From a virus (Duplodnaviria > Heunggongvirae > Uroviricota > Caudoviricetes), in the IMG/VR virus record IMGVR_UViG_2675903278_000002: a stretch of DNA of 64,000 nt; one strand, written 5' to 3'. The notes under the pieces are model-generated. The model did no database searches. It saw only the letters and a program-made list of their open reading frames with translations, and was not told where the DNA came from. Made by a program: the position numbers and the translations under genes. Positions 10,053 through 43,221 of this stretch are shown in pieces. The number at the start of each line of letters is the position of its first letter. Within the stretch, counting starts at the first letter, position 1.

Positions 10053-10073
10053 TTTGTTCTGGCGTCTGTAATT

Positions 10074-10157
10074 AGCCTGCTTCTGTATATATAAATAACT
10101 ACATATTAATTATTAATATACGGAAGCAGGCTGTTTTGTATCAGAGACTCCAGACCT
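10074..10157. repeat. Long AT-rich hairpin element, copy A (second copy at 39559-39637)
   Basis: AGCCTGCTTCtGTATATATAAATAA...TTATTAATATACgGAAGCAGGCT followed by gttttgt. The downstream CCAGACCT is also conserved. Confidence 0.65.
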
Positions 10158-10468: not shown

Positions 10469-10479
10469 TAGATAAGTAC

Positions 10480-10985
10480 AAACTATTCATAAAGTGAATT
10501 GTAAGTGCTAAGATCTGATAGTTTCCAGTCGTAGACTGGAGACTCGACCTGATGGGTGGGGGTAAGCGTCACTGGCGTCAGGTTTAAAAAAGCTCACTAC
10601 CAGCGTAGAACCGGTGCCGTTTAGGTGTCGGGGAAGGGGGAACCAAAGTGAGCGGAGACAAGGGTCACTTTATGATTGTCGAGTCTGGGGTGTTTCGAGA
10701 GGTTGAATCCAGTACTCCCCTTCATAAAGTGTGGGAAGATCTCGGTTCTGGGGTGCTGTCATCCATAACTTCCCAAGTCTAAGCTGGCAGTAGACTTAGG
10801 CCATAACTTTTCAGGTTATGAAACGACCAGGTTGGTGAGGGATTTTTATACTCACCTCCCTGGGAGAGTATTACCTGAAAAGACAACCTCTCACTTCGTT
10901 CGAGGTGAACTTCACTCACTTCGTTCGTTCAGTTCAGGTTTATAAAAACCTGTTCTGGGAAGTAATTTGTTTATTTTAATAATTA
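10480..10985. other. ORF-free, hairpin-dense region (candidate structured ncRNA or origin)
   Basis: No ORF of 60 aa or more in any frame. Long-range pairing AGACTCGAC (10540) with GTCGAGTCT (10678). At least 7 local hairpins. Direct repeats TTCATAAAGTG..AAGATCT x2 and TCACTTCGTTCG x2. Confidence 0.3.
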
Positions 10986-10988
10986 TTA

Positions 10989-11013
10989 ACACGCACGCGT
11001 GTGCGCACGCGCG
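10989..11013. other. 25-nt perfectly alternating purine-pyrimidine tract
   Basis: acacgcacgcgtgtgcgcacgcgcg, which has Z-DNA-forming sequence composition. Confidence 0.6.
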
Positions 11014-31099: not shown

Positions 31100-31180
31100 C
31101 GCAGGGAAATTTTCAGAAACGGCGAGGAACGTATTCATAAGCCGACGGGAAACGGCCAGGATTTTTTCGGGAAACGGCTG
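31100..31180 (+). repeat. Second iteron-like set (GGGAAACGGC family)
   Basis: GCAGGGAAAT, CAGAAACGGCG, CGGGAAACGGCC and CGGGAAACGGCTG. The last two are 22 bp apart. Confidence 0.55.
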
Positions 31181-31279
31181 CATTCGCCTTTATGTAGAAA
31201 AAAACATCGGGAAGCTGGTGGAATCCAACCAGCGGTTGTCGGACAGGCGAGCGGGGAAAATTATGATGACTTTCGTCGC

Positions 31280-33419: not shown

Positions 33420-33944
33420 TCAAAAAGGCAAAATTCGTTCAACCCAATCGAACAAAACAACTATTTTTCTACCGTTCTCGACACGTAGTGTAACCTGACA
33501 AGCATCTGCGCCTGCTGACACCCCCTCAATTTCACGGCCATCCGCCATGTACACCCTTATAGATTTGTTTGCTTTGTAGGCTTGGTTGCAAATTGCAAAA
33601 AAATCGCGGCGTGATGGCCGATTATCGACATAATCAGGGTGAACTGTTAGTCGACCTTTGAAATCGTGAGCGATACTGTCAACCACACCTGATTCAATTG
33701 TACTAATGCGTTCAAGTGGGAGCCTTATACGATTTTCTTTGTCAAAAGGGGCTGGGCAAAGGTCAACTTTGTTACGAGATGGCATGAGGCCATAAACGTA
33801 CATGCAAAACGCCTGGCCATCTTCGAGAGTGACCCTTACAGGAATTTGTTCTCTGCGCCAGAACATCAGTAGTTTTTCAACGTTAGTGTAATCTCGCGGC
33901 CAGAGTTCAGCTTGGATACCGTAGGTAATATCTTTGGTTGTCAT
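33420..33944 (-). CDS. Hypothetical protein (two beta-rich halves, possibly Sm-like)
   Basis: Start uncertain (33944 or 34022). Segments VRVTLEDGQAFCMYVYG and IRVYMADGREIEGV...VTLRVENGRKIVVLFDWVERI. Confidence 0.45.
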   Translation of the reverse strand: MTTKDITYGIQAELWPRDYTNVEKLLMFWRREQIPVRVTLEDGQAFCMYVYGLMPSRNKVDLCPAPFDKENRIRLPLERISTIESGVVDSIAHDFKGRLTVHPDYVDNRPSRRDFFAICNQAYKANKSIRVYMADGREIEGVSAGADACQVTLRVENGRKIVVLFDWVERILPF

Positions 33945-33948
33945 ATCA

Positions 33949-34413
33949 TCACAGAGTTGTTGGCAGAATGTCGATGTCACCAGAATTGCTGGTAAACACC
34001 CTGAACGCTTTTGTGTCTCCATTCTTCAGAGTCGTTTCTCGCTCTTGACGAGCGGGGTTTAGAGCACATAAACCTGCACCTTCAAGAGATGCACCCACAA
34101 TTAATTCTCCGGCATTTAAATGGAAAGTCGCTTTTTCGCCTGTAGCCAGTTTTGCGACAGTTTCGCCGTTGATGAAAATGGAAGCATCACATCCAGCTCC
34201 TACAAAACCTGTGTCTCTCATTACCACCAACGTAGCTGGCGCTGCGCTTTGATACTTGAACACTTTGGCCTGCGGTGCTGGTTTGGCGTCATGGATTGAT
34301 ATTGGGTGTGATTGGCACGCGGCAAGCATCAACACTGGTAACGTTAGTAGAGGGAGAAGCGAGTATTTCATGATAGTTTTAGAACAGAAAGTGAACAGTA
34401 TGGGAGACTTCAT
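33949..34413 (-). CDS. Lipoprotein
   Basis: Lipobox LPVLMLAA-C. GGGAGA SD lies before ATG 34413. Confidence 0.6.
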   Translation of the reverse strand: MKSPILFTFCSKTIMKYSLLPLLTLPVLMLAACQSHPISIHDAKPAPQAKVFKYQSAAPATLVVMRDTGFVGAGCDASIFINGETVAKLATGEKATFHLNAGELIVGASLEGAGLCALNPARQERETTLKNGDTKAFRVFTSNSGDIDILPTTL

Positions 34414-36325: not shown

Positions 36326-36345
36326 ATAAGTAAGTGATTACTTAG
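36326..36345. promoter_or_regulatory. Box B palindrome copy in the divergent helicase/ParB-like intergenic region
   Basis: ATAAGTAAgtgaTTACTTAG. Confidence 0.55.
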
Positions 36346-36362
36346 TGGATTGTAGCAATAAA

Positions 36363-37043
36363 ATGGATGTAAAAATCACGATTTTGCAGGTTGATGTTGC
36401 CAACCTTCGCCCGAATACCTGGAACACCAATTCGGTTGGTGCGCAGAATTTTGAAAAACTGAAAGGTTCTATCGAAAAATTGGGCTTTTTTAAGCCAATT
36501 TTGGCTCGTGAACTTGAAGATGGATTTTTTGAAATCCTCGGCGGTGAACATCGCTGGCGTGCTGCTATTGAGCAAGGAATTTCAACGGTTCCGGTGCTTT
36601 CTGTGGGCAAAATTAGCGATGTCGTAGCTAAACAGATGTCACTGGTGGACAACGAGCGATACGGTGAAGACGACCAAATCGCATTGCAACGCTTCATTGA
36701 AGAAATTCAGTCAGAACTTGACTATCAACTGTCTGAAATCGCCCCGTATGACGACGAAATCTCGATGGTTTTAGCAAAAGAGGCGGCAATCGACCTTGAA
36801 GCACTGGAGGCGTTGTCTCGTGGTAGTGATGAGCCTGTCGATACCGACAAACGAGAGAAAACCGAACGTGTGGGTGCGGAACATCAGACCATGCGCTTCA
36901 AAGTAACTTTCGATGCGTCAGATCGTGTTGCAGAAACCATAAAAAACATCATCAAAGAGCAGGCTATTAACACCGGTAATGAAATGGAGAACGCTGGTGA
37001 GGCTCTGGTGTGGCTGGTCGACTACTACAAGGAGCGTATGTAA
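36363..37043 (+). CDS. ParB/Srx-fold (ParB N-terminal domain) protein 1
   Basis: PILARELEDGFFEILGGEHRWRAA carries the GxxHR ParB box. The start is either ATG 36363 or GTG 36345. Confidence 0.7.
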   Translation: MDVKITILQVDVANLRPNTWNTNSVGAQNFEKLKGSIEKLGFFKPILARELEDGFFEILGGEHRWRAAIEQGISTVPVLSVGKISDVVAKQMSLVDNERYGEDDQIALQRFIEEIQSELDYQLSEIAPYDDEISMVLAKEAAIDLEALEALSRGSDEPVDTDKREKTERVGAEHQTMRFKVTFDASDRVAETIKNIIKEQAINTGNEMENAGEALVWLVDYYKERM

Positions 37044-37711
37044 TGACCAAAAAGTTTGAAATCGTATATCGCGACCCGGCAGATCTTATTCCCTATGAGA
37101 TGAATGCCAAAAAGCATGATGAACAGCAGATCAGAGATTTGGCCGCAGCCATTAAAAAGCGCGGATTTGACCAGCCAATTACGGTCGATAAGAACGACGT
37201 AATTATTACTGGCCACGGCCGCCGTGAGGCTGCAATTTTTGCTGGACTTGAGCGCGTACCGGTTATTGTTCGTGATGATCTGAGTGATGACGAGGTTCGT
37301 GCGAAGCGCCTTGAAGATAACCGACTTGCCAGCATTGATTACGATGCAATTAAGCTACAGAAAGAGCTTGAGTCGCTTGTTCTGGACGATATTGAGGTTT
37401 TCGGCTTTGAAGAGCGTGAGTTGAATGTTCTCGTTGGCAGTATGACAGAAGAAATGGACACCGACTCGCTAGTTATCGATCTTGGCGAAGAAACTAAACG
37501 ACAGAAGGATGAACACACCGAGATCAGTCGTGAAGTTGCAGCGGAAGAAGTACGTGTTGTCGACGTATTGGGCTTTAAAACGCTCCCTGCTGGCTCTGCC
37601 ATTGTTGTTGGTGATTTGCTTGCCCATATGGAAGAAATGACGGGAGAAAGCGGGGTAGACGCATTTGTGGCATATGCGGAGAAGATCTCTTCCGGGGAGA
37701 TGGCTGCATGA
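37043..37711 (+). CDS. ParB-like nuclease-domain protein 2
   Basis: TAATG coupling with AAGGAG upstream. Motifs QPITVDKNDVIITGHGRREAA and VPVIV. Confidence 0.7.
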   Translation: MTKKFEIVYRDPADLIPYEMNAKKHDEQQIRDLAAAIKKRGFDQPITVDKNDVIITGHGRREAAIFAGLERVPVIVRDDLSDDEVRAKRLEDNRLASIDYDAIKLQKELESLVLDDIEVFGFEERELNVLVGSMTEEMDTDSLVIDLGEETKRQKDEHTEISREVAAEEVRVVDVLGFKTLPAGSAIVVGDLLAHMEEMTGESGVDAFVAYAEKISSGEMAA

Positions 37712-38373
37712 GCAAATACATCATCAACGTATCGTTTCAGACACGCGTAAATAAAACCACGCGCACGTTGGAAATCGCTGAGTCGTTCGGGCTTGGCCTG
37801 GACGAAAAAGAGTGGACGCTTTACGACAATCTGGAGCTGGAAGTGAAGCAGGGCGATGTGGTGTACATCACCGGCCAATCCGGTTCCGGCAAATCCGTTG
37901 TGCTGCGCGAGTTGCAACGACAGATGAAGGATGAAGGGCTGTCTGTAGCCTCCATCGATGATTTTACCTTCGATAATGAGGTTAACGTCATCGATCAGTT
38001 GGGCAAAACGACCAGTGATGCGCTTGGGTTGTTATCTATGGCTGGTCTGAACGATGCATATCTGTTTGTTCGCAAGCCTTCTGAAATGTCAGACGGCCAG
38101 AAATATCGTCTCAAGATTGCCAAACTGATTGAGTCAGGCGCTAAAGTATGGGCTGCTGACGAGTTCGGCGCTGTTCTCGACCGTGTAACCGCTCAGGTTG
38201 TGGCGTCTAACCTCCAGCGTGCCGCTCGAAAGGTTGGTGCGACGGTAATGGTGGCGACGACTCACGAAGACCTGAAGAACGCGCTGCGCCCTGATATGCA
38301 GATCACCAAGCACTACAAAGAACGCGTGAAGGTGGAATATCACAATGGTAGTCATGATGAGGTCCATTCATGA
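37708..38373 (+). CDS. Soluble ABC-type ATPase
   Basis: Walker A GQSGSGKS, signature MSDGQKYR, Walker B VWAADEF, H-loop TTHE. ATGA overlap with the upstream gene. Confidence 0.75.
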   Translation: MSKYIINVSFQTRVNKTTRTLEIAESFGLGLDEKEWTLYDNLELEVKQGDVVYITGQSGSGKSVVLRELQRQMKDEGLSVASIDDFTFDNEVNVIDQLGKTTSDALGLLSMAGLNDAYLFVRKPSEMSDGQKYRLKIAKLIESGAKVWAADEFGAVLDRVTAQVVASNLQRAARKVGATVMVATTHEDLKNALRPDMQITKHYKERVKVEYHNGSHDEVHS

Positions 38374-39260
38374 CGGACATCATCATTAAACGCTACCGCC
38401 CTGAAGAGTTTCCGCGTCATCTGGACTTTCTGGAGCGAATGACTGTTACAAAGGGAACTGTAGAGGACTGGCACGCTCTTAAGTCGCTTCACTACAAAAC
38501 AGACGGCAAACCTTTCGCGCCAACTTACTATCGCTGCGAACTTGATGACCGTCTGGTGGGCGTCGTGGTTATGGCTTACCCGAAACTACTGTTGGCACCT
38601 CGCCACCGCATGTTTCCTAAGTTGAAACCAACCACTAATACCACCGTGGCTAACCAGTACTGGGGTCGGTACGTGAATAACAACTTTGCGGTGATCAGTC
38701 GCTCAGTTGTGGATACTCAGTATCGTGGCGTAGGCGTCTCTTATAGAATGATTAACCTGGTTAGCAGGATGCATGACCGGCCAATCATTGAGATCCAGTC
38801 CTCGATGAGCAAATACAATCCCTTCGCCATGAAAGCAGGGTTTAAGTTCATCCGCCCTGAGCGACCGAAGAGCTATGAAAGTGCACTGCGTGTGTTCCAG
38901 CGCCATTTCCGCTCCGACCCGGGTGATAACGAGGCGATCGTCAAAGAGTTGTTCGCTATGAGCGAGTCTCGTCGTCGCCGTGCGCTGCGCGATTTGGTGG
39001 CGGACTACCATAAGAACAGTTCCCTGGCAAAAGCTGGGCGGAATCGTGGCACGACGATTCAGGACATTGCCGACAGTCTGGTGGACGAGGCCAGCATTGT
39101 GAAGCTGCTCAAGGACATTCACAACCTGAGCTTTACGTCTCCGTTGTATGGTGTGTACCGAAACCCTGACTTTGGCCGTCGACTGCCTGACACGCTGCCA
39201 CTGCTGGCATTCGACAAACAACCTTTGGATAAACCGTTAGAAATTGCTTTACCGGCATAA
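38370..39260 (+). CDS. Hypothetical protein with GNAT-like acetyltransferase core
   Basis: ATGA overlap with the upstream gene. VDTQYRGVGVSYRMI resembles GNAT motif A (Q/RxxGxG/A). Confidence 0.45.
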   Translation: MTDIIIKRYRPEEFPRHLDFLERMTVTKGTVEDWHALKSLHYKTDGKPFAPTYYRCELDDRLVGVVVMAYPKLLLAPRHRMFPKLKPTTNTTVANQYWGRYVNNNFAVISRSVVDTQYRGVGVSYRMINLVSRMHDRPIIEIQSSMSKYNPFAMKAGFKFIRPERPKSYESALRVFQRHFRSDPGDNEAIVKELFAMSESRRRRALRDLVADYHKNSSLAKAGRNRGTTIQDIADSLVDEASIVKLLKDIHNLSFTSPLYGVYRNPDFGRRLPDTLPLLAFDKQPLDKPLEIALPA

Positions 39261-39269
39261 GGATTTGCC

Positions 39270-39536
39270 ATGACGTTAACCGACAAACAAAAGGACATCA
39301 TCAAAACGCTCAATCTCGGTTATGAGCGAGGTCATCTACTTGACCTGGACGAATTGCTTGAAGTTTTGCCGTACAAGACAACCAAGCAAAGTATCCAGTT
39401 CTCAATTCGCGCTCTGATAAAAAAGGGGCTGGTGGAGAAAGGGCATACGCGCCAACGCAGTGACAATCGCTATCACCGCCGGACTCTTGGGTTAACCACT
39501 TTAGGTCGAGCCAAAGCGAAGTTACTGGTGATGTAA
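39270..39536 (+). CDS. Small winged-helix (MarR-like) DNA-binding protein
   Basis: 88 aa, with TKQSIQFSIRALIKKGLVEK. Confidence 0.5.
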   Translation: MTLTDKQKDIIKTLNLGYERGHLLDLDELLEVLPYKTTKQSIQFSIRALIKKGLVEKGHTRQRSDNRYHRRTLGLTTLGRAKAKLLVM

Positions 39537-39558
39537 TCGGTCTGGGAGCTTATTTAAA

Positions 39559-39637
39559 GACCTGCATCTGTATATATAAATAATAAGTAACTTATTAAAT
39601 ATATACGGAAGCAGGCTTCGTAAGACATGCCAGACCT
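39559..39637. repeat. Long AT-rich hairpin element, copy B
   Basis: GACCTGCATCTGTATATATAAATAATAAGT-a-ACTTATTAAATATATACGGAAGCAGGCT, plus the conserved CCAGACCT. The centre contains a Box B-like AATAAGTAACTTATT. Confidence 0.65.
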
Positions 39638-39651
39638 AATTAAACACCCCA

Positions 39652-39666
39652 GAAAACAAGTTGGTT
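39652..39666. promoter_or_regulatory. Box A palindrome copy (degenerate)
   Basis: GAAAACAAGTTGGTT. Confidence 0.5.
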
Positions 39667-39676
39667 AGCAGATGCA

Positions 39677-39692
39677 GTAAACAAGTTGTTTT
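39677..39692. promoter_or_regulatory. Box A palindrome copy
   Basis: GTAAACAAGTTGTTTT, 39 nt upstream of the terS ATG. Confidence 0.6.
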
Positions 39693-39721
39693 AGAGCGCA
39701 TGGACGCGCTCTGTGTGTTTT
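39693..39721 (+). terminator. Leader hairpin upstream of the packaging operon (terminator-like)
   Basis: AGAGCGC-atggac-GCGCTCT followed by gtgtgTTTT. The U-tract is not contiguous with the stem. Confidence 0.4.
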
Positions 39722-39731
39722 AGAGGGATCT

Positions 39732-40364
39732 ATGACGGTCGAAAAAGACGAGGTAAAAACTCGCCTGACACCAGCGGAGTGGGCCGAAGCTGAAGCCAAA
39801 TGGACGTCAGGCGAATATACACTCTCAAAGCTGGAGGAAGAGTACGGCATTCGTCGTGAAACACTCTCCAGACATTTCAAAAAGCGAGGATTAGAGAAAG
39901 GCGCGGACTCTGTTGGGAAGATGGTTCGTGAGTCTCTTAAATCTGACGCAGAGCTTCGCGCTAAAGCCCGTGCGGAAAAGATAGAAGAACGTCGTACACG
40001 TTATGACGGCTGGGCGTATGCGTTGGGGCAGATGGTGATGGTCGAAGTCACTACGGCCAAACGTGAGGGTAAGCCTTTAGGGGCGATTGAGGATTCTCTC
40101 AAGAGCTTACAGAGAGCCAGTAATACCCTTGCAAAATGCTTTGAAGTTTCGTCCAAAGCATTGGGCATGGATCATGCGGAAAATGACGAGGAAGAAATTC
40201 CGAACCTGGTATTTGGTGAGCTTACGCCTTCCCAGGTGGCGAAATTACGTCAGGAAGACGACGAGCCTGAAATCATCGATGACGAATTGCTTGAGACGTT
40301 GGAAGAAGAAGCTCTAAGCGAATTTGATGCGACAGATGATGGAAGTGAAGGGGAGGACGAATAA
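39732..40364 (+). CDS. Terminase small subunit (putative)
   Basis: Lies immediately upstream of, and is ATGA/TAATG-coupled to, the large subunit. N-terminal HTH-like LSKLEEEYGIRRETLSRHFKKRG and an acidic C-terminus. Confidence 0.65.
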   Translation: MTVEKDEVKTRLTPAEWAEAEAKWTSGEYTLSKLEEEYGIRRETLSRHFKKRGLEKGADSVGKMVRESLKSDAELRAKARAEKIEERRTRYDGWAYALGQMVMVEVTTAKREGKPLGAIEDSLKSLQRASNTLAKCFEVSSKALGMDHAENDEEEIPNLVFGELTPSQVAKLRQEDDEPEIIDDELLETLEEEALSEFDATDDGSEGEDE

Positions 40365-41620
40365 TGGCAATCCCGTCCTCGCTCAGTCTTGTGCAACTGC
40401 ATTCTGGACAGATGAAAGTCTTCCAGTCTCCGCATCGATTTAAAGTTGTTTGTGCTGGTCGACGCTGGGGAAAATCCCGGTTGTCGATCTCCACTATTAT
40501 TCGTGCGGCGGCAAAGGAAAAAAAGCAAAGAGTCTGGTATGTCGCTCCTACTTACCAGATGGCTCGCCAGATTTTGTGGGACGATCTACAGGAAGTTCTG
40601 CCTCGTAAGTGGGTTAGGAAAAAGAACGACACCACGATGACAATCGTGTTGAAGAACGGTTCGGAGATCGCCCTCAAAGGTGCTGATAAGCCTGACACTC
40701 TGCGCGGCGTAGCGTTGCATTTTGTAGTGCTTGATGAATTTCAGGATATGAAGGCTGACACCTGGTACAAGGTGTTACGACCTACTCTTTCATCGACACG
40801 CGGCGGTGCACTGATCATTGGTACGCCAAAAGGCTTCTCGGAATTTCACAAACTGTGGACTATAGGCCAGAACGTAGAGCTGCAAACAAAGGGACAGTGG
40901 AAGAGCTGGCAGTTTGTAACTGCCGATTCTCCGTTTGTACCTACGGCGGAAATTGAAGCTGCTAAGAACGATATGGACCCGAAATCGTTCGCTCAGGAGT
41001 ACCTGGCGAGCTTTGAGAACATGTCCGGGCGCGTTTACTACCCGTTCGATCGTAACGTGCATGTAAAACCGCTTCAGTTCAACCCTCGGTTGCCTATATG
41101 GGTAGGGCAGGACTTCAACATTGACCCGATGTCTTCAGTAATTTTGCAACCTCAGCCAAATGGTGAGCTATGGGCAATTGATGAATTGGTGCTCTTTTCC
41201 TCTAACACGGCAGAGGTTTGTGATGAGCTTGAGAGACGCTTCTGGCGCTGGAAATCACAGATAACGGTATTTCCAGATCCGGCAGGTGCTTATCGCCAAC
41301 ATGCTCGCGGGGAGTCTGACGTCGACATATTCAAAGAGAAGGGATTCTTACGTGTCGATTATTCGAAAAAGCACCCGCCAATTGCGGATCGTGTTAATGC
41401 TGTTAACCGAATGCTGATGACCGCATCTGGAGATATCCGGCTGTATATCGATCCGAAGTGCAAGCATTTGATTGATTCACTGGAAAAAGTCATCTACAAG
41501 CCTGGAACACGAGATATGGATAAGACAGGTGGCATTGAGCATAGTGCAGACGCATTGGGCTATCCAGTACATCGTAGGTATCCAGTCAAAAACCGTGTTA
41601 TTCTTGGTGGTTCTCGATAG
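40364..41620 (+). CDS. Terminase large subunit
   Basis: Walker A-like VCAGRRWGKS, Walker B HFVVLDEFQD, and a C-terminal nuclease-type DPAG region. Confidence 0.85.
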   Translation: MAIPSSLSLVQLHSGQMKVFQSPHRFKVVCAGRRWGKSRLSISTIIRAAAKEKKQRVWYVAPTYQMARQILWDDLQEVLPRKWVRKKNDTTMTIVLKNGSEIALKGADKPDTLRGVALHFVVLDEFQDMKADTWYKVLRPTLSSTRGGALIIGTPKGFSEFHKLWTIGQNVELQTKGQWKSWQFVTADSPFVPTAEIEAAKNDMDPKSFAQEYLASFENMSGRVYYPFDRNVHVKPLQFNPRLPIWVGQDFNIDPMSSVILQPQPNGELWAIDELVLFSSNTAEVCDELERRFWRWKSQITVFPDPAGAYRQHARGESDVDIFKEKGFLRVDYSKKHPPIADRVNAVNRMLMTASGDIRLYIDPKCKHLIDSLEKVIYKPGTRDMDKTGGIEHSADALGYPVHRRYPVKNRVILGGSR

Positions 41621-41638
41621 GTAAGTAATTATCTAAGG
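41617..41638. promoter_or_regulatory. Box B palindrome-family copy
   Basis: ATAGGTAAGTAATTATCTAAGG. Its TAG is the terL stop codon, and it lies 9 nt before the portal ATG. Confidence 0.55.
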
Positions 41639-41646
41639 TTATTCAA

Positions 41647-43221
41647 ATGGAATTGAACGACAAACAAATTAAGGATCTGGTGGCGCGACGCCACCCGGAA
41701 TACGAAAAGAAAAAAGAACATTGGGACTTCCTCGCCAGCACTTACGCTGGCGGGCGTGGTTGGTTTACAGACAATATCTTTCGTTACTTTAAAGAGGGAG
41801 ATCAGGAGTTTAAGGAGCGAGTTGAACGTGCTTATCGCTTCAACCACACTCGTGAGGTGGTAAACCTCATCAACAAATATCTCTTTAAAGAAGACATTCA
41901 TAGAAATATCGAAGAGGCACCAGAGCAGATCCGCAATTTCTGGAAACGTGCGACTCGCCAGAATGCCTCTATTGACTCATTTATGGCCGCTATTGATTTG
42001 CAGTCGTCTATTTACGGTCGCATATGGGTTGTTGTCGATAGCACGATGAGTGGTGATGTTGAGTCAGTAGCTGACGAGAAAAAGAAAGATGCTCGCGCCT
42101 ACGCCTACTGGATTTCACCTCAGCAAATGCTGGATGTGGCATGGGACGACGACGGGAATATGTTGTGGGCGTTAATTGTGGAAGTCGCTCGTGATGACGC
42201 AGATCCTTTTACTTCTACAGGTCAGGAATACCAACGTTATCGTCTGTGGACACAAAACGAGTGGTATCTGTTCCGTGAGGAAGTGAAGAAGGGCGCTGGT
42301 GGAGCAGGTCGCCGTCAGGCAAAAGTTATTTTAGAGGATAGCGGTGAGCATAATCTCGGCGTAGTTCCTGTGTTTCCTGTTGATTGTATTGGAGAAAGTG
42401 AATCACCGTATTTCAGCCCATCGTTGATCGATGATATCGCTTATCTTGATCGTGCGGTTGCAAACTATCTGTCAAACCTTGATGCCATTATTCAGGATCA
42501 GACATTTAGCCAGTTGGCTATACCGGTACAGTCGCTTTTACCTGGTGATGAAAACCACACTAAAGTGCTTGAAATGGGCACAAAGCGAGTATTCACCTAC
42601 GATTCTGAAGGTGGAAACCAGCCGTTTTATCTGTCACCAGACCCGAAACAAGCTCAGATGATCATCACTACGATTAAGACGGTGATTAACGAAATCTACC
42701 ATTCAGTTGGTGTAGCTGGTGAGCGAACGAAGCAGGACAACGCACAGGGAATCGATAATTCATCTGGTGCCGCAAAAATGTATGACTTCCAGCGTGTAAA
42801 TAGCTTGCTTGTCACAAAAGCAGAGCGTCTGGAAAGGGCTGAACGCCAAATCATGCTACTGGTTGCGAAATGGATGGGGGTAGATCTGGACGAAGACCAC
42901 TCTTTAATTGCGTATCCAGAAAGTTTCGATATTCGTGGCCTTACTGATGAATTTTCTGTTGCCGAGAAACTGTCATTACTTCAGGCACCGGACTCTGTAC
43001 GTCGTCACCAGATGGAAATGCTTATTGAGAAGATTTTCCCGAACATTACTGAGGCGATGAAAAAGGAATTTGATAAAGATCTCTTGAATTTTCCTCCAAA
43101 AAATGATCTAAATACCCTTGAAAATAAGTCAGTACTTACTTATGATCGTGGTGCAGCCCAAGAAAGCGGGCAAGATCAACCCCGAGGGAATGGGGACTCA
43201 TCTACTCAAGAGAACGAGTGA
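41647..43221 (+). CDS. Portal protein
   Basis: 524 aa, directly downstream of the large terminase. The call rests on size and synteny. Confidence 0.75.
   Translation: MELNDKQIKDLVARRHPEYEKKKEHWDFLASTYAGGRGWFTDNIFRYFKEGDQEFKERVERAYRFNHTREVVNLINKYLFKEDIHRNIEEAPEQIRNFWKRATRQNASIDSFMAAIDLQSSIYGRIWVVVDSTMSGDVESVADEKKKDARAYAYWISPQQMLDVAWDDDGNMLWALIVEVARDDADPFTSTGQEYQRYRLWTQNEWYLFREEVKKGAGGAGRRQAKVILEDSGEHNLGVVPVFPVDCIGESESPYFSPSLIDDIAYLDRAVANYLSNLDAIIQDQTFSQLAIPVQSLLPGDENHTKVLEMGTKRVFTYDSEGGNQPFYLSPDPKQAQMIITTIKTVINEIYHSVGVAGERTKQDNAQGIDNSSGAAKMYDFQRVNSLLVTKAERLERAERQIMLLVAKWMGVDLDEDHSLIAYPESFDIRGLTDEFSVAEKLSLLQAPDSVRRHQMEMLIEKIFPNITEAMKKEFDKDLLNFPPKNDLNTLENKSVLTYDRGAAQESGQDQPRGNGDSSTQENE

What the first reader, a model, noticed from the sequence alone, without database searches (positions are those of the whole stretch)
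39559..39731. Complex leader of the packaging/late operon: long hairpin, two Box A copies and a terminator-like hairpin
Within 175 nt upstream of the small terminase gene lie four elements. These are hairpin copy B (39559-39617, with a Box B-like centre), conserved CCAGACCT, two Box A copies 25 bp apart (39652 and 39677), and the stem AGAGCGC-atggac-GCGCTCT followed by gtgtgTTTT. No terminator separates this leader from the ~24 kb of structural genes other than short attenuator-type hairpins. The arrangement resembles antitermination-controlled late operons (lambda Q/tR' logic). It could alternatively hold the pac site.
Basis: partly seen in the sequence, partly recalled or inferred. Interest (0 to 1): 0.55.

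Follow-up and report, generated by a model that had tools for sequence, protein, structure and literature searches.

The report
Control region before phage packaging genes
The 195-base gap in front of the DNA-packaging genes of this SSU5-type phage-plasmid is built from elements that recur across the genome: one of three copies of a large palindrome, two copies of a regulator-binding palindrome, and a conserved RNA stem-loop, and it is not a lambda-style Box A/Box B antitermination site.

Summary
All four described features are present at the stated coordinates and exceed chance. The window is an SSU5-type phage-plasmid, 99% identical to E. coli phage Cyrano/pLF82.

1. The long hairpin (39561-39615) is the core of a ~100-bp dyad element with outer boxes GGTCTGG/CCAGACC. 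It occurs three times per genome at conserved positions. Distant relatives keep the architecture but have entirely different arm and box sequences. Every relative down to 50% TerS identity has a long inverted repeat at this spot.

2. The "Box A copies" are two sites of a palindromic operator, (AGA)AAACAAnTTGTTT(TCT). There are about 20 sites per genome against 0.2 expected, and most lie just upstream of start codons. They do not match NusB/S10 boxA.

3. The GC stem-loop is conserved with compensatory changes and is an RNA-level leader element. Its U-tract is absent in relatives at about 60% identity.

Best reading: this is an internal control point at the head of the virion operon, combining operator control, a leader stem-loop/attenuator and a sequence-specifically recognised palindrome whose role is unresolved (pac site, centromere-like site, or RNA processing site). 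The SSU5 GenBank record starts inside the palindrome, which hints at packaging, but this could be an assembly artefact. Interest is moderate.

The parts
39270..39536 (+). 88-aa winged-helix-type protein gene (phrog_900). It is the last gene of the upstream operon and lies immediately upstream of the palindrome in every relative examined.
   Evidence: Only a weak, sub-threshold match to Lrs14/Sta1 wHTH regulators. The recognition helix TKQSxQFSxRxL is conserved even where the palindrome arms differ.
39539..39545 (.). Outer-left box GGTCTGG of the dyad element.
   Evidence: (I2).
39561..39615 (.). Long palindrome 'copy B': conserved arms CCTGCaTCTGTATATAT / ATATATACGGAAGCAGG around an AT-rich centre. 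The SSU5 and Cyrano linear records start at 39598/39599.
39630..39636 (.). Outer-right box CCAGACC of the dyad element.
39651..39669 (.). Operator site 1: AGAAAACAAGTTGGTTAGC. The left half is perfect and the right half degenerate. It is preceded by TAATTAAACACC, which resembles the -10/start region of the genome's other operator-bearing promoters, but the -10 here is degenerate (CCTAAT).
39676..39694 (.). Operator site 2: AGTAAACAAGTTGTTTTAG, with a perfect 13-bp core at 39679-39691.
   Evidence: The Klebsiella clade retains a single fused site.
39692..39721 (+). Leader RNA stem-loop (stem 39693-39699 / 39706-39712, loop AUGGAC) followed by UGUGUUUU. Acts as an attenuator or 5'-UTR structure.
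39722..39734 (+). Shine-Dalgarno sequence AGAGGGA and the ATG of the terS-like gene. This stretch is invariant in 39 unique close relatives.
39732..40364 (+). Small-terminase-like DNA-binding protein: N-terminal HTH, long helical hairpin and acidic C-terminal tail. Its stop codon overlaps the TerL start.
40364..41620 (+). Large terminase subunit (Terminase_6N/Terminase_3 type).
10056..10156 (.). Dyad element 'copy A', located after the Dam-type methylase gene: GTTCTGG, hairpin 10076-10130, CCAGACC.

Best explanation
The 195-bp gap is an internal control point. It lies between an upstream operon (two ParB_N proteins, two ABC-type ATPases, a small wHTH protein) and the packaging/virion operon of an SSU5-type phage-plasmid. 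It is assembled from three parts.

(1) Operator sites. Two adjacent sites of the phage's genome-wide palindromic operator AGAAAACAAnTTGTTTTCT. At the genome's well-formed sigma-70-like promoters this operator sits about +5 to +23 after a GATAAT hexamer. I infer that a single phage DNA-binding regulator, most likely a repressor, shuts the virion operon together with the early, replication and partition promoters.

(2) Leader stem-loop. A conserved + strand RNA stem-loop about 10 nt upstream of the ribosome-binding site. In this clade it is followed by a U-rich tract and can act as an intrinsic attenuator. Its more widely conserved role is probably as a 5'-UTR structure affecting stability, processing or translation.

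(3) Dyad element. One of three copies of a ~100-bp dyad-symmetric element (outer boxes, conserved arms, AT-rich core). Its sequence is held constant among the three loci and changes in concert in distant relatives, which implies recognition by a sequence-specific factor. At this locus I think its most likely job is packaging initiation (a pac-type site for a headful terminase). That is inference at about 0.3 probability.

Transcription probably reads in from the upstream operon rather than starting only here.

Shown: the anatomy, copy numbers, conservation and covariation. Inferred: repressor action, attenuation and the role of the palindrome.
For: Operator family:
- 15 sites in the window and 20 in SSU5 at <=1 mismatch, against about 0.2 expected.
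- Most lie 13-70 nt upstream of the start codons of nrdB, parA, helicase, ant, many small early ORFs and terS. A second class lies about 50 bp upstream of another operator site.
- No sites occur inside the 24-kb virion operon.
- There is a shared upstream context, GATAAT-TAAACC-AAGA.

Stem-loop:
- Preserved in 39 unique close relatives.
- One G-C to A-U double change; single changes are G.U-compatible only on the + strand.
- Relatives at 61-63% TerS identity carry different, fully compensated stems (GGCGCA/TGCGCC and GGCGTC/GATGCC) at the same place, with a conserved GGA loop.

Palindrome:
- Three copies at conserved positions in Cyrano and SSU5, found in 74, 68 and 78 loci of the three sets.
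- Arm positions are near-invariant while the flanks vary.
- Outer boxes are enriched at +-42-58 nt from the centres.
- Distant relatives have the same architecture with other arm and box sequences at the terS and methylase positions.
- A long inverted repeat sits between the wHTH gene and terS in all relatives down to 50% TerS identity.

Packaging hint:
- The SSU5 record ends map inside the palindrome.
- The closest TerL relatives are headful-type enzymes (P74-26, T4 gp17, PBSX family). Headful packaging tolerates more than one initiation site.

Read-through: only 35-50 nt separate the palindrome from the start codon in three distant relatives.
Against: - No transcript ends, protein binding data or virion termini are available, so every functional step is inferred.
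- At terS the -10-like hexamer is degenerate (CCTAAT here, GGTTTT in SSU5) and there is no -35. The sites may therefore act as roadblocks rather than as a promoter operator, or could bind an activator.
- The operator also precedes parA, which must be expressed in the plasmid state. That is awkward for a lysogeny repressor.
- The U-tract is not conserved beyond this clade, so termination is not the conserved function of the stem-loop.
- For the pac reading: three copies per genome, with copies B and C often identical throughout.
- The TerS and wHTH recognition helices stay constant while the arms diverge.
- The SSU5 record break falls one base before the perfect inverted-repeat arm, and at the point where SSU5 copies B and C diverge. 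A 454 assembler could break a circular contig there.
Confidence: 0.45

Rival explanations
1. Lambda-type antitermination leader. Late transcripts start upstream, and the hairpin and 'Box A' repeats act as nut- or qut-like signals. The GC hairpin with its U-tract is a tR'-like terminator that a phage antiterminator overrides.
For: - A conserved terminator-like stem-loop lies directly upstream of terS.
- The 24-kb operon has no strong internal terminators.
- Transcription probably reads in from upstream.
Against: - The repeats do not match boxA. The only hit has 3 mismatches, is on the minus strand, and occurs at chance frequency.
- The repeats are DNA palindromes present about 20 times per genome, mostly just upstream of start codons.
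- One copy is dispensable in the Klebsiella clade.
- The long hairpin is a 25-bp AT-rich stem upstream of the repeats, present at three loci. It is not a short boxB downstream of boxA.
- The U-tract is absent in relatives that keep the stem-loop.
- There is no Rfam match.
- No N- or Q-like protein was seen in the annotated relatives, though I did not search for one exhaustively.
Confidence: 0.1
2. The palindrome is a dispersed plasmid-partition centromere, like the four IR sites of phage-plasmid N15. It would be bound by the centromere-binding partner of the type Ib ParA. The copy next to terS might also couple partition complexes to late-gene control.
For: - Three dispersed dyad-symmetric copies. 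One lies just downstream of the par operon region in Cyrano and SSU5.
- Arms and boxes evolve in concert.
- The small RHH-like protein after parA is 98% identical between SSU5 and Cyrano, matching the invariance of the arms.
- N15 uses four separate IR centromere sites (PMC7205306). From my own recollection, Ravin, Rech and Lane 2008 reported that the N15 Sop system facilitates late expression.
Against: - Variable cargo genes separate the RHH gene from copy C, and the left flank of copy C is unrelated between genomes.
- Known RHH centromere-binding proteins bind arrays of short repeats rather than a 100-bp dyad.
- The one position conserved in all relatives is the one upstream of terS, which partition does not explain.
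- pMT1, which uses a P1-type par system, keeps copy B.
Confidence: 0.2
3. The palindrome acts as RNA. It would be an operon-end hairpin serving as a terminator, an RNase III processing site or a 3' stabiliser between transcription units, with the outer boxes forming a lower stem, as in the intercistronic RNase III sites of T7.
For: - Copies A and B lie in short intergenic gaps after a + strand gene, and so does copy C in Cyrano and SSU5. The distant-relative hairpins at the terS position start close to the end of the wHTH gene.
- Copies A and C are followed by CTTTT-type runs, and copy B of one relative by T8AT6.
- The stem is very stable.
- GGUCUGG and CCAGACC can pair.
- Wobble-type mismatches on the + strand outnumber those on the minus strand in copies B and C (41 vs 4).
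Against: - Arm sequence, not just pairing, is conserved among paralogous copies and across genera.
- Position 9 varies independently on the two arms, and C.A mismatches are the commonest state in copy A.
- Copy B here lacks a U-tract.
- The wobble bias rests on very few independent events.
Confidence: 0.25
4. Copy B is a cos site with precise cohesive ends, arranged like lambda: cosN in the palindrome, the repeats as cosB-like TerS-binding sites, then the small terminase gene.
For: - The SSU5 linear record starts 133 nt before terS, inside the right half of the palindrome. The junction is contiguous in plasmid relatives.
- The geometry resembles lambda cosN-cosB-Nu1 (my own knowledge).
Against: - TerL belongs to the T4/PBSX/P74-26 group rather than to the lambda GpA or HK97 groups.
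- Three copies per genome would cut the chromosome into about 30-48 kb pieces.
- The 'cosB' repeats are a genome-wide operator.
- No terminal overhang duplication or gap is visible in the SSU5 record.
- The Cyrano record start probably follows SSU5 (my inference); its paper reports no end mapping.
- Other virus-named records start elsewhere.
Confidence: 0.1

Closest known systems
Dispersed operator networks of plasmid-type elements: phage P1 C1 repressor operators, and the 12 KorB OB sites (13-bp palindrome TTTAGCSGCTAAA) of plasmid RK2
   Same: A short conserved operator repeated many times around the replicon, at or near promoters of replication, partition and other operons. The 6-N-6 palindrome has the same format as OB.
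   Different: The sequence is unrelated. The binding protein is unknown. P1 operators are asymmetric. Here the operator also sits in front of the virion operon itself. This comparison rests on my own knowledge of P1 and RK2 and was not tested.
Phage packaging sites just upstream of the small terminase gene: SPP1 pac (pacL-pacC-pacR) and lambda cos (cosQ-cosN-cosB-Nu1)
   Same: The position directly upstream of terS, the dyad symmetry, the bendable AT-rich DNA, and the repeats between the site and the terS start.
   Different: The element is present three times per genome. The repeats belong to a transcription-type operator family. No ends have been mapped. TerL is not of the lambda or HK97 cos type.
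N15 dispersed centromeres IR1-IR4 (SopB sites)
   Same: The host element is a phage-plasmid. Several identical palindromes are scattered among phage genes, including near late-gene control regions.
   Different: N15 sites are 16-bp palindromes bound by a type Ia ParB (PMC7205306). Here the element is about 100 bp, the par system is type Ib with an RHH-like partner, and no binding has been shown.
Lambda late leader (pR'-qut-tR') and nut sites (boxA/boxB)
   Same: A terminator-like stem-loop in the leader of a very long late operon.
   Different: There is no boxA or boxB match, no identified Q or N protein, the leader is much shorter, and the U-tract is not conserved among relatives.
T7 intercistronic RNase III sites
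   Same: Several related long hairpins placed between transcription units, with a possible lower stem, internal loop and upper stem.
   Different: Cleavage is untested. Arm sequence conservation and independent variation of paired positions point to recognition of DNA half-sites.

Membership tests
Lambda-type nut site (boxA + boxB) | boxA consensus (CGCTCTTA / TGCTCTTTAACAA) on the transcribed strand | tested here: not met
   the only match in the region (39686-39698) has 3 mismatches and lies on the minus strand. The window holds 34 such matches against 24 expected. The repeats at 39652/39677 read AAACAAGTTG.
Lambda-type nut site (boxA + boxB) | boxB: a short GC-stem hairpin with a purine-rich pentaloop a few nt downstream of boxA | tested here: not met
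   the hairpin is a 25-bp, mostly A-U stem of 55 nt. It lies upstream of the repeats and is one of three genomic copies.
Lambda Q / tR' late control | An intrinsic terminator in the late leader | tested here: inconclusive
   The stem plus UGUGUUUU is present and conserved in close relatives. Relatives at 61-63% TerS identity keep the stem-loop without a U-tract.
Lambda Q / tR' late control | A Q-type antiterminator gene and a Q-binding element at a constitutive late promoter | not tested
   None is annotated in Cyrano or SSU5. I made no dedicated search of all ORFs, and no promoter has been mapped.
Global operator family (P1 C1 / KorB OB type) | Many copies of one conserved short sequence at promoter-proximal positions around the replicon | tested here: met
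   15 sites in the window and 20 in SSU5, against about 0.2 expected. Most lie upstream of start codons, with a shared -10-like context.
Global operator family (P1 C1 / KorB OB type) | Binding by a specific regulator, with an effect on transcription | not testable with these tools
   Needs EMSA or ChIP and reporter assays.
cos / pac packaging site | Virion DNA ends, or a headful series start, map to the site | tested here: inconclusive
   The SSU5 record ends map at window 39597/39598. The break also coincides with the inverted-repeat boundary and with the point where copies B and C diverge. The Cyrano start probably follows SSU5 (inference; its paper reports no end mapping). No read data were available.
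cos / pac packaging site | A single site per genome (required for cos, not for headful pac) | tested here: not met
   Three copies per genome.
Plasmid partition centromere (parS) | Repeated or palindromic site linked to the par operon | tested here: inconclusive
   One of the three copies lies downstream of the parA-RHH operon region, but cargo genes intervene and the left flank is variable.
Plasmid partition centromere (parS) | Binding by the centromere-binding protein, plasmid stabilisation and incompatibility | not testable with these tools
   Needs genetics and biochemistry.
Small terminase subunit (for ORF 39732-40364) | Encoded directly upstream of TerL, with an N-terminal DNA-binding domain, an oligomerisation helix or helices and a C-terminal TerL-binding tail | tested here: met
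   Its stop codon overlaps the TerL start. The AF2 model shows a 3-helix HTH, a long helical hairpin and an acidic tail. There is no sequence-family or significant fold match, so the assignment rests on architecture and synteny.

The most novel reading that the evidence does not exclude
The three-copy, ~100-bp dyad element (outer boxes, conserved arms, AT-rich core) would be a previously undescribed cis-acting system of the large SSU5 phage-plasmid family, bound by a dedicated factor. It would link two life styles of the element: for example, dispersed centromere or replication sites of the plasmid that double as packaging-initiation or late-operon control sites of the phage.
Probability: 0.25. 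Interest if true: 0.65.

Novelty: new variant of a known kind. Interest (0 to 1): 0.4.

Why it matters
SSU5-type phage-plasmids are common in Escherichia, Klebsiella, Salmonella, Enterobacter and Yersinia. This intergenic region matched 798 plasmid records, and literature in the held library reports members carrying CTX-M-15.

I found nothing in the held literature on how they control late genes, where packaging starts, or what their centromere is.

This work gives three concrete, testable cis elements:
- a genome-wide operator that defines a regulon of about 20 sites;
- a conserved leader stem-loop in front of the terminase genes;
- a three-copy dyad element whose arms change in concert between lineages.

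If the dyad element proves to be the packaging or partition site, it would be useful for typing these elements, predicting transduction and engineering them. If it is only an RNA processing hairpin, the region is ordinary.

Tried and rejected
- **T4-type late promoter.** TATAAATA occurs only twice in the window, both inside hairpins A and B, and nowhere before other late genes. No gp55-like factor is annotated. Rejected.
- **Rfam.** No family reaches threshold; only chance miRNA-like hits to the hairpin.
- **Cumulative GC skew of SSU5.** It rises monotonically because nearly all genes are on one strand, so it says nothing about origins.
- **Co-variation of candidate binders with the arms.** The TerS HTH and the wHTH recognition helix are conserved where the arms are entirely different. 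Neither is an obvious arm reader.
- **The two ParB_N proteins.** They have an arginine patch but no recognisable HTH, so they are unlikely to be site-specific on their own.
- **pMT1 as a natural test of the centromere idea.** It keeps only copy B, but the regions holding copies A and C are deleted outright. Not discriminating.
- **Contig ends in IMG/VR loci.** None coincides with a hairpin.
- **Literature.** Ten searches and several look-ups found nothing on SSU5 termini, pac/cos, centromere or late control. The SSU5 genome announcement and Gilcrease and Casjens 2018 are not held.
- **Fold search of the TerS-like model.** Only weak HTH matches, including the phage protein 2AO9.

Full report
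**What the window is.** The region 38300-41700 is 97.7-99.2% identical to Escherichia phage CMS-2020a and PhiR41_1, and the part held in the Cyrano record is 99.7% identical. It is about 80% identical to Salmonella phage SSU5 and to Klebsiella phage-plasmids. The 351-bp stretch around the finding matches 798 plasmid records from Klebsiella, Escherichia, Enterobacter, Yersinia (pMT1), Salmonella and others. Cyrano is plasmid pLF82 of E. coli LF82 (PMC9928086). The window is therefore part of an SSU5-type phage-plasmid.

**Gene context.** The finding lies in the 195-bp gap between an 88-aa ORF (39270-39536, phrog_900) and ORF 39732-40364.
- ORF 39732-40364 (phrog_867, 'DNA binding domain') overlaps the start of a large terminase (40364-41620). 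That TerL is of the Terminase_6N/Terminase_3 type, and the portal gene follows.
- The 210-aa protein has no Pfam, NCBIfam or PDB sequence match.
- An alignment of 25 homologues and an AlphaFold model (mean pLDDT 76) show an N-terminal three-helix HTH, a long helical hairpin and an acidic tail. I accept it as the small terminase on architecture and synteny. The fold search gave only weak HTH hits.
- Upstream lie two ParB_N-domain proteins, two ABC-type ATPases and the 88-aa winged-helix-like protein. The three genes nearest terS (the 296-aa ATPase, the 88-aa gene, terS-like gene) keep this order, followed by TerL, in relatives down to 50% TerS identity.

**Check of the observation.** Every feature is present and non-random; details are in the observation check. 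Terminator-like matches in the virion operon are no more frequent than in shuffles.

**The 'Box A' repeats.** The core AAACAAnTTGTTT is a palindrome.
- It occurs 15 times in the window and 20 times in SSU5 at one mismatch or fewer, against about 0.2 expected.
- Aligning the sites shows two things. First, the palindrome extends to 19 bp (AGAAAACAAnTTGTTTTCT). Second, most sites lie 13-70 nt upstream of start codons, preceded by a -10-like hexamer and a short conserved stretch, for example GATAAT-TAAACC-AACAAGA-AAACAA.
- Some sites leave only 13-18 nt to the ATG. The transcript start must therefore lie upstream of the palindrome. With GATAAT as the -10, the operator covers about +5 to +23. That is an inference, and it points to a repressor.
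- Genes preceded by the motif include nrdB, parA, the replicative helicase, ant, a methylase and many small ORFs, as well as terS. None lies within the virion operon.
- A second class of sites lies about 50 bp upstream of another operator site.
- The boxA consensus is not matched.
- In the Klebsiella clade exactly one 25-bp unit is missing, leaving a single fused site. The pair is therefore not essential.
- At terS the -10-like hexamer is degenerate (CCTAAT here, GGTTTT in SSU5) and there is no -35. A promoter here is not established.

**The GC stem-loop.**
- In 39 unique close relatives (40 sequences with the window), the stem, the U-rich tail and the ribosome-binding site are preserved.
- On 12 distinct sequences, one pair shows a G-C to A-U double change. 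Four pairs show single changes that remain G.U pairs on the + strand but would be A.C on the minus strand. 86% of cells are paired, against 27-60% when the partner is slid.
- Two relatives at 63% and 61% TerS identity have a stem-loop at the same place with different, fully compensated stems (ACGGCGCA-UGGA-UGCGCCGU and GGCGUC-AGGAA-GAUGCC). They keep a GGA-containing loop but have no U-tract.
- This is therefore a + strand RNA structure. Termination is plausible in this clade but is not its conserved function.
- Relatives at 58% identity and below lack both the stem-loop and the operator.

**The long hairpin.**
- *Copies and positions.* It has a second copy in the window (10076-10130, after a Dam-type methylase gene). 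A third lies in the rest of the Cyrano genome (record 31159-31211), after the parA operon and before the helicase-primase module. SSU5 has three copies at the same relative positions. pMT1, which has lost the other two regions, keeps only the terS copy.
- *Frequency.* Scans of IMG/VR with the neighbouring proteins recovered the element in 74 of 75, 68 of 80 and 78 of 80 loci.
- *Conservation.* The arms CCTGCTTCYGTATATA are near-invariant across all three loci and all genera, while the flanks vary. Boxes GKTCTGG and CCAGAMC sit 42-58 nt from the centre on either side. Copies B and C are often identical throughout. The left flank of copy C is unrelated sequence in different genomes.
- *Distant relatives.* Two distant genomes (IMG/VR 2751185775_000001 and 2597490185_000004) have the same architecture with other arms (GCCGTGYTCCCATA, GCCTTGCTCCCATA) and other outer boxes (CCGCAGT/ACTGCGG). 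One of them carries the element both after the methylase gene and upstream of the terS-like gene; for the other only the methylase copy was recovered complete.
- *Universal position.* Six further relatives (63-50% TerS identity) all carry a long inverted repeat between the 88-aa gene and terS, again with different sequences. In three of the distant relatives (L368, L369, L354) only 35-50 nt remain before the start codon. That leaves no room for a promoter, so read-through from upstream is likely there.
- *Pairing statistics.* Within the arms, position 9 varies independently on the two sides, and C.A is the commonest state in copy A. This fits two protein half-sites better than an obligatory hairpin. 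However, + strand wobble mismatches dominate in copies B and C, and copies A and C are followed by T-runs. An RNA role is therefore not excluded.

**Packaging.**
- The linear SSU5 record starts at window 39598 and ends at 39597. Cyrano starts one base later. The Cyrano paper reports no end mapping and aligned the genome with SSU5; I infer its record was oriented to match, so SSU5 is the only independent datum.
- The break lies one base before the perfect 17-nt right arm. It is also exactly where SSU5 copies B and C stop being alike. A 454 assembler could open a circular contig at such a point.
- The junction sequence is contiguous in plasmids, with no missing or duplicated overhang.
- The nearest TerL relatives are Thermus phage P74-26, T4 gp17 and, weakly, the PBSX family. 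From my own knowledge these are headful packagers. This argues against a lambda-like cos site, but it would allow several pac sites.
- I could find no published end mapping (ten searches).

**Synthesis.**
- The lambda-type reading fails its two testable defining features. The terminator feature is only clade-specific.
- What can be said with fair confidence: the virion operon is preceded by operator sites of a genome-wide regulon and by a conserved leader RNA stem-loop.
- The long hairpin is one copy of a family-wide, sequence-specifically maintained dyad element, and its position before terS is its most conserved location.
- The role of that element is open. My estimates are: packaging initiation about 0.3 (including about 0.1 for precise cos), RNA processing or termination about 0.25, centromere-like about 0.2, and the rest other roles such as a replication origin.

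The experiments listed under next steps would separate these quickly.

Noticed in passing
window 10470-11000: A stretch of about 530 bp with no ORF of 80 aa or more on either strand, downstream of hairpin copy A and an 84-aa ORF. It has short direct repeats (cacttcgttcg twice), an AT-rich block and an alternating CACG/CGCG run. It could be an origin or a small-RNA region.
   Followed up: no
window 33420-34022 (- strand): A 200-aa protein with a full-length match to 'Repressor of phase-1 flagellin' (FljA family, PF03614, E 2.5e-84). It lies in the only minus-strand gene block of the window.
   Followed up: no
L006:5976-6335 (Cyrano CYRAN_29) and SSU5_034: The gene after the type Ib parA is annotated in Cyrano as a RelE/ParE toxin. 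It is 98% identical to the SSU5 protein and, from its sequence pattern and a weak sub-threshold match to the aCcr1 regulator family, looks to me like a ribbon-helix-helix partition partner. The annotation is probably wrong.
   Followed up: partly
Relatives L037, L046, L047, L049, L052, L064 (Klebsiella-type), aligned to window 39654-39678: Exactly one 25-bp operator unit is missing. What remains is a single site that joins the left context of site 1 to the perfect core of site 2.
   Followed up: yes
Left flank of hairpin copy C (loci L169-L248, about 40 nt upstream of the element): Unrelated sequences abut the element in different genomes, while the element and its right flank are conserved. 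The element marks the edge of a cargo hot spot.
   Followed up: partly
window 36345-39260: Two ParB_N-domain proteins with an arginine patch but no recognisable HTH, followed by two ABC-type ATPases. The 296-aa ATPase sits next to the packaging genes in every relative examined. The function is unknown and it does not look like a transporter.
   Followed up: partly
window 39575-39582 and 10090-10097: The octamer TATAAATA (the T4 late-promoter sequence) occurs only twice in 64 kb, both times inside the long hairpins. Distant relatives also have TATAAATACTAT next to the right arm upstream of terS.
   Followed up: partly
window 39650-39692: Because the operator is a palindrome, the two copies can pair with each other in RNA, forming a stem directly abutting the GC stem-loop. 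The Klebsiella deletion argues that this pairing is not required.
   Followed up: partly
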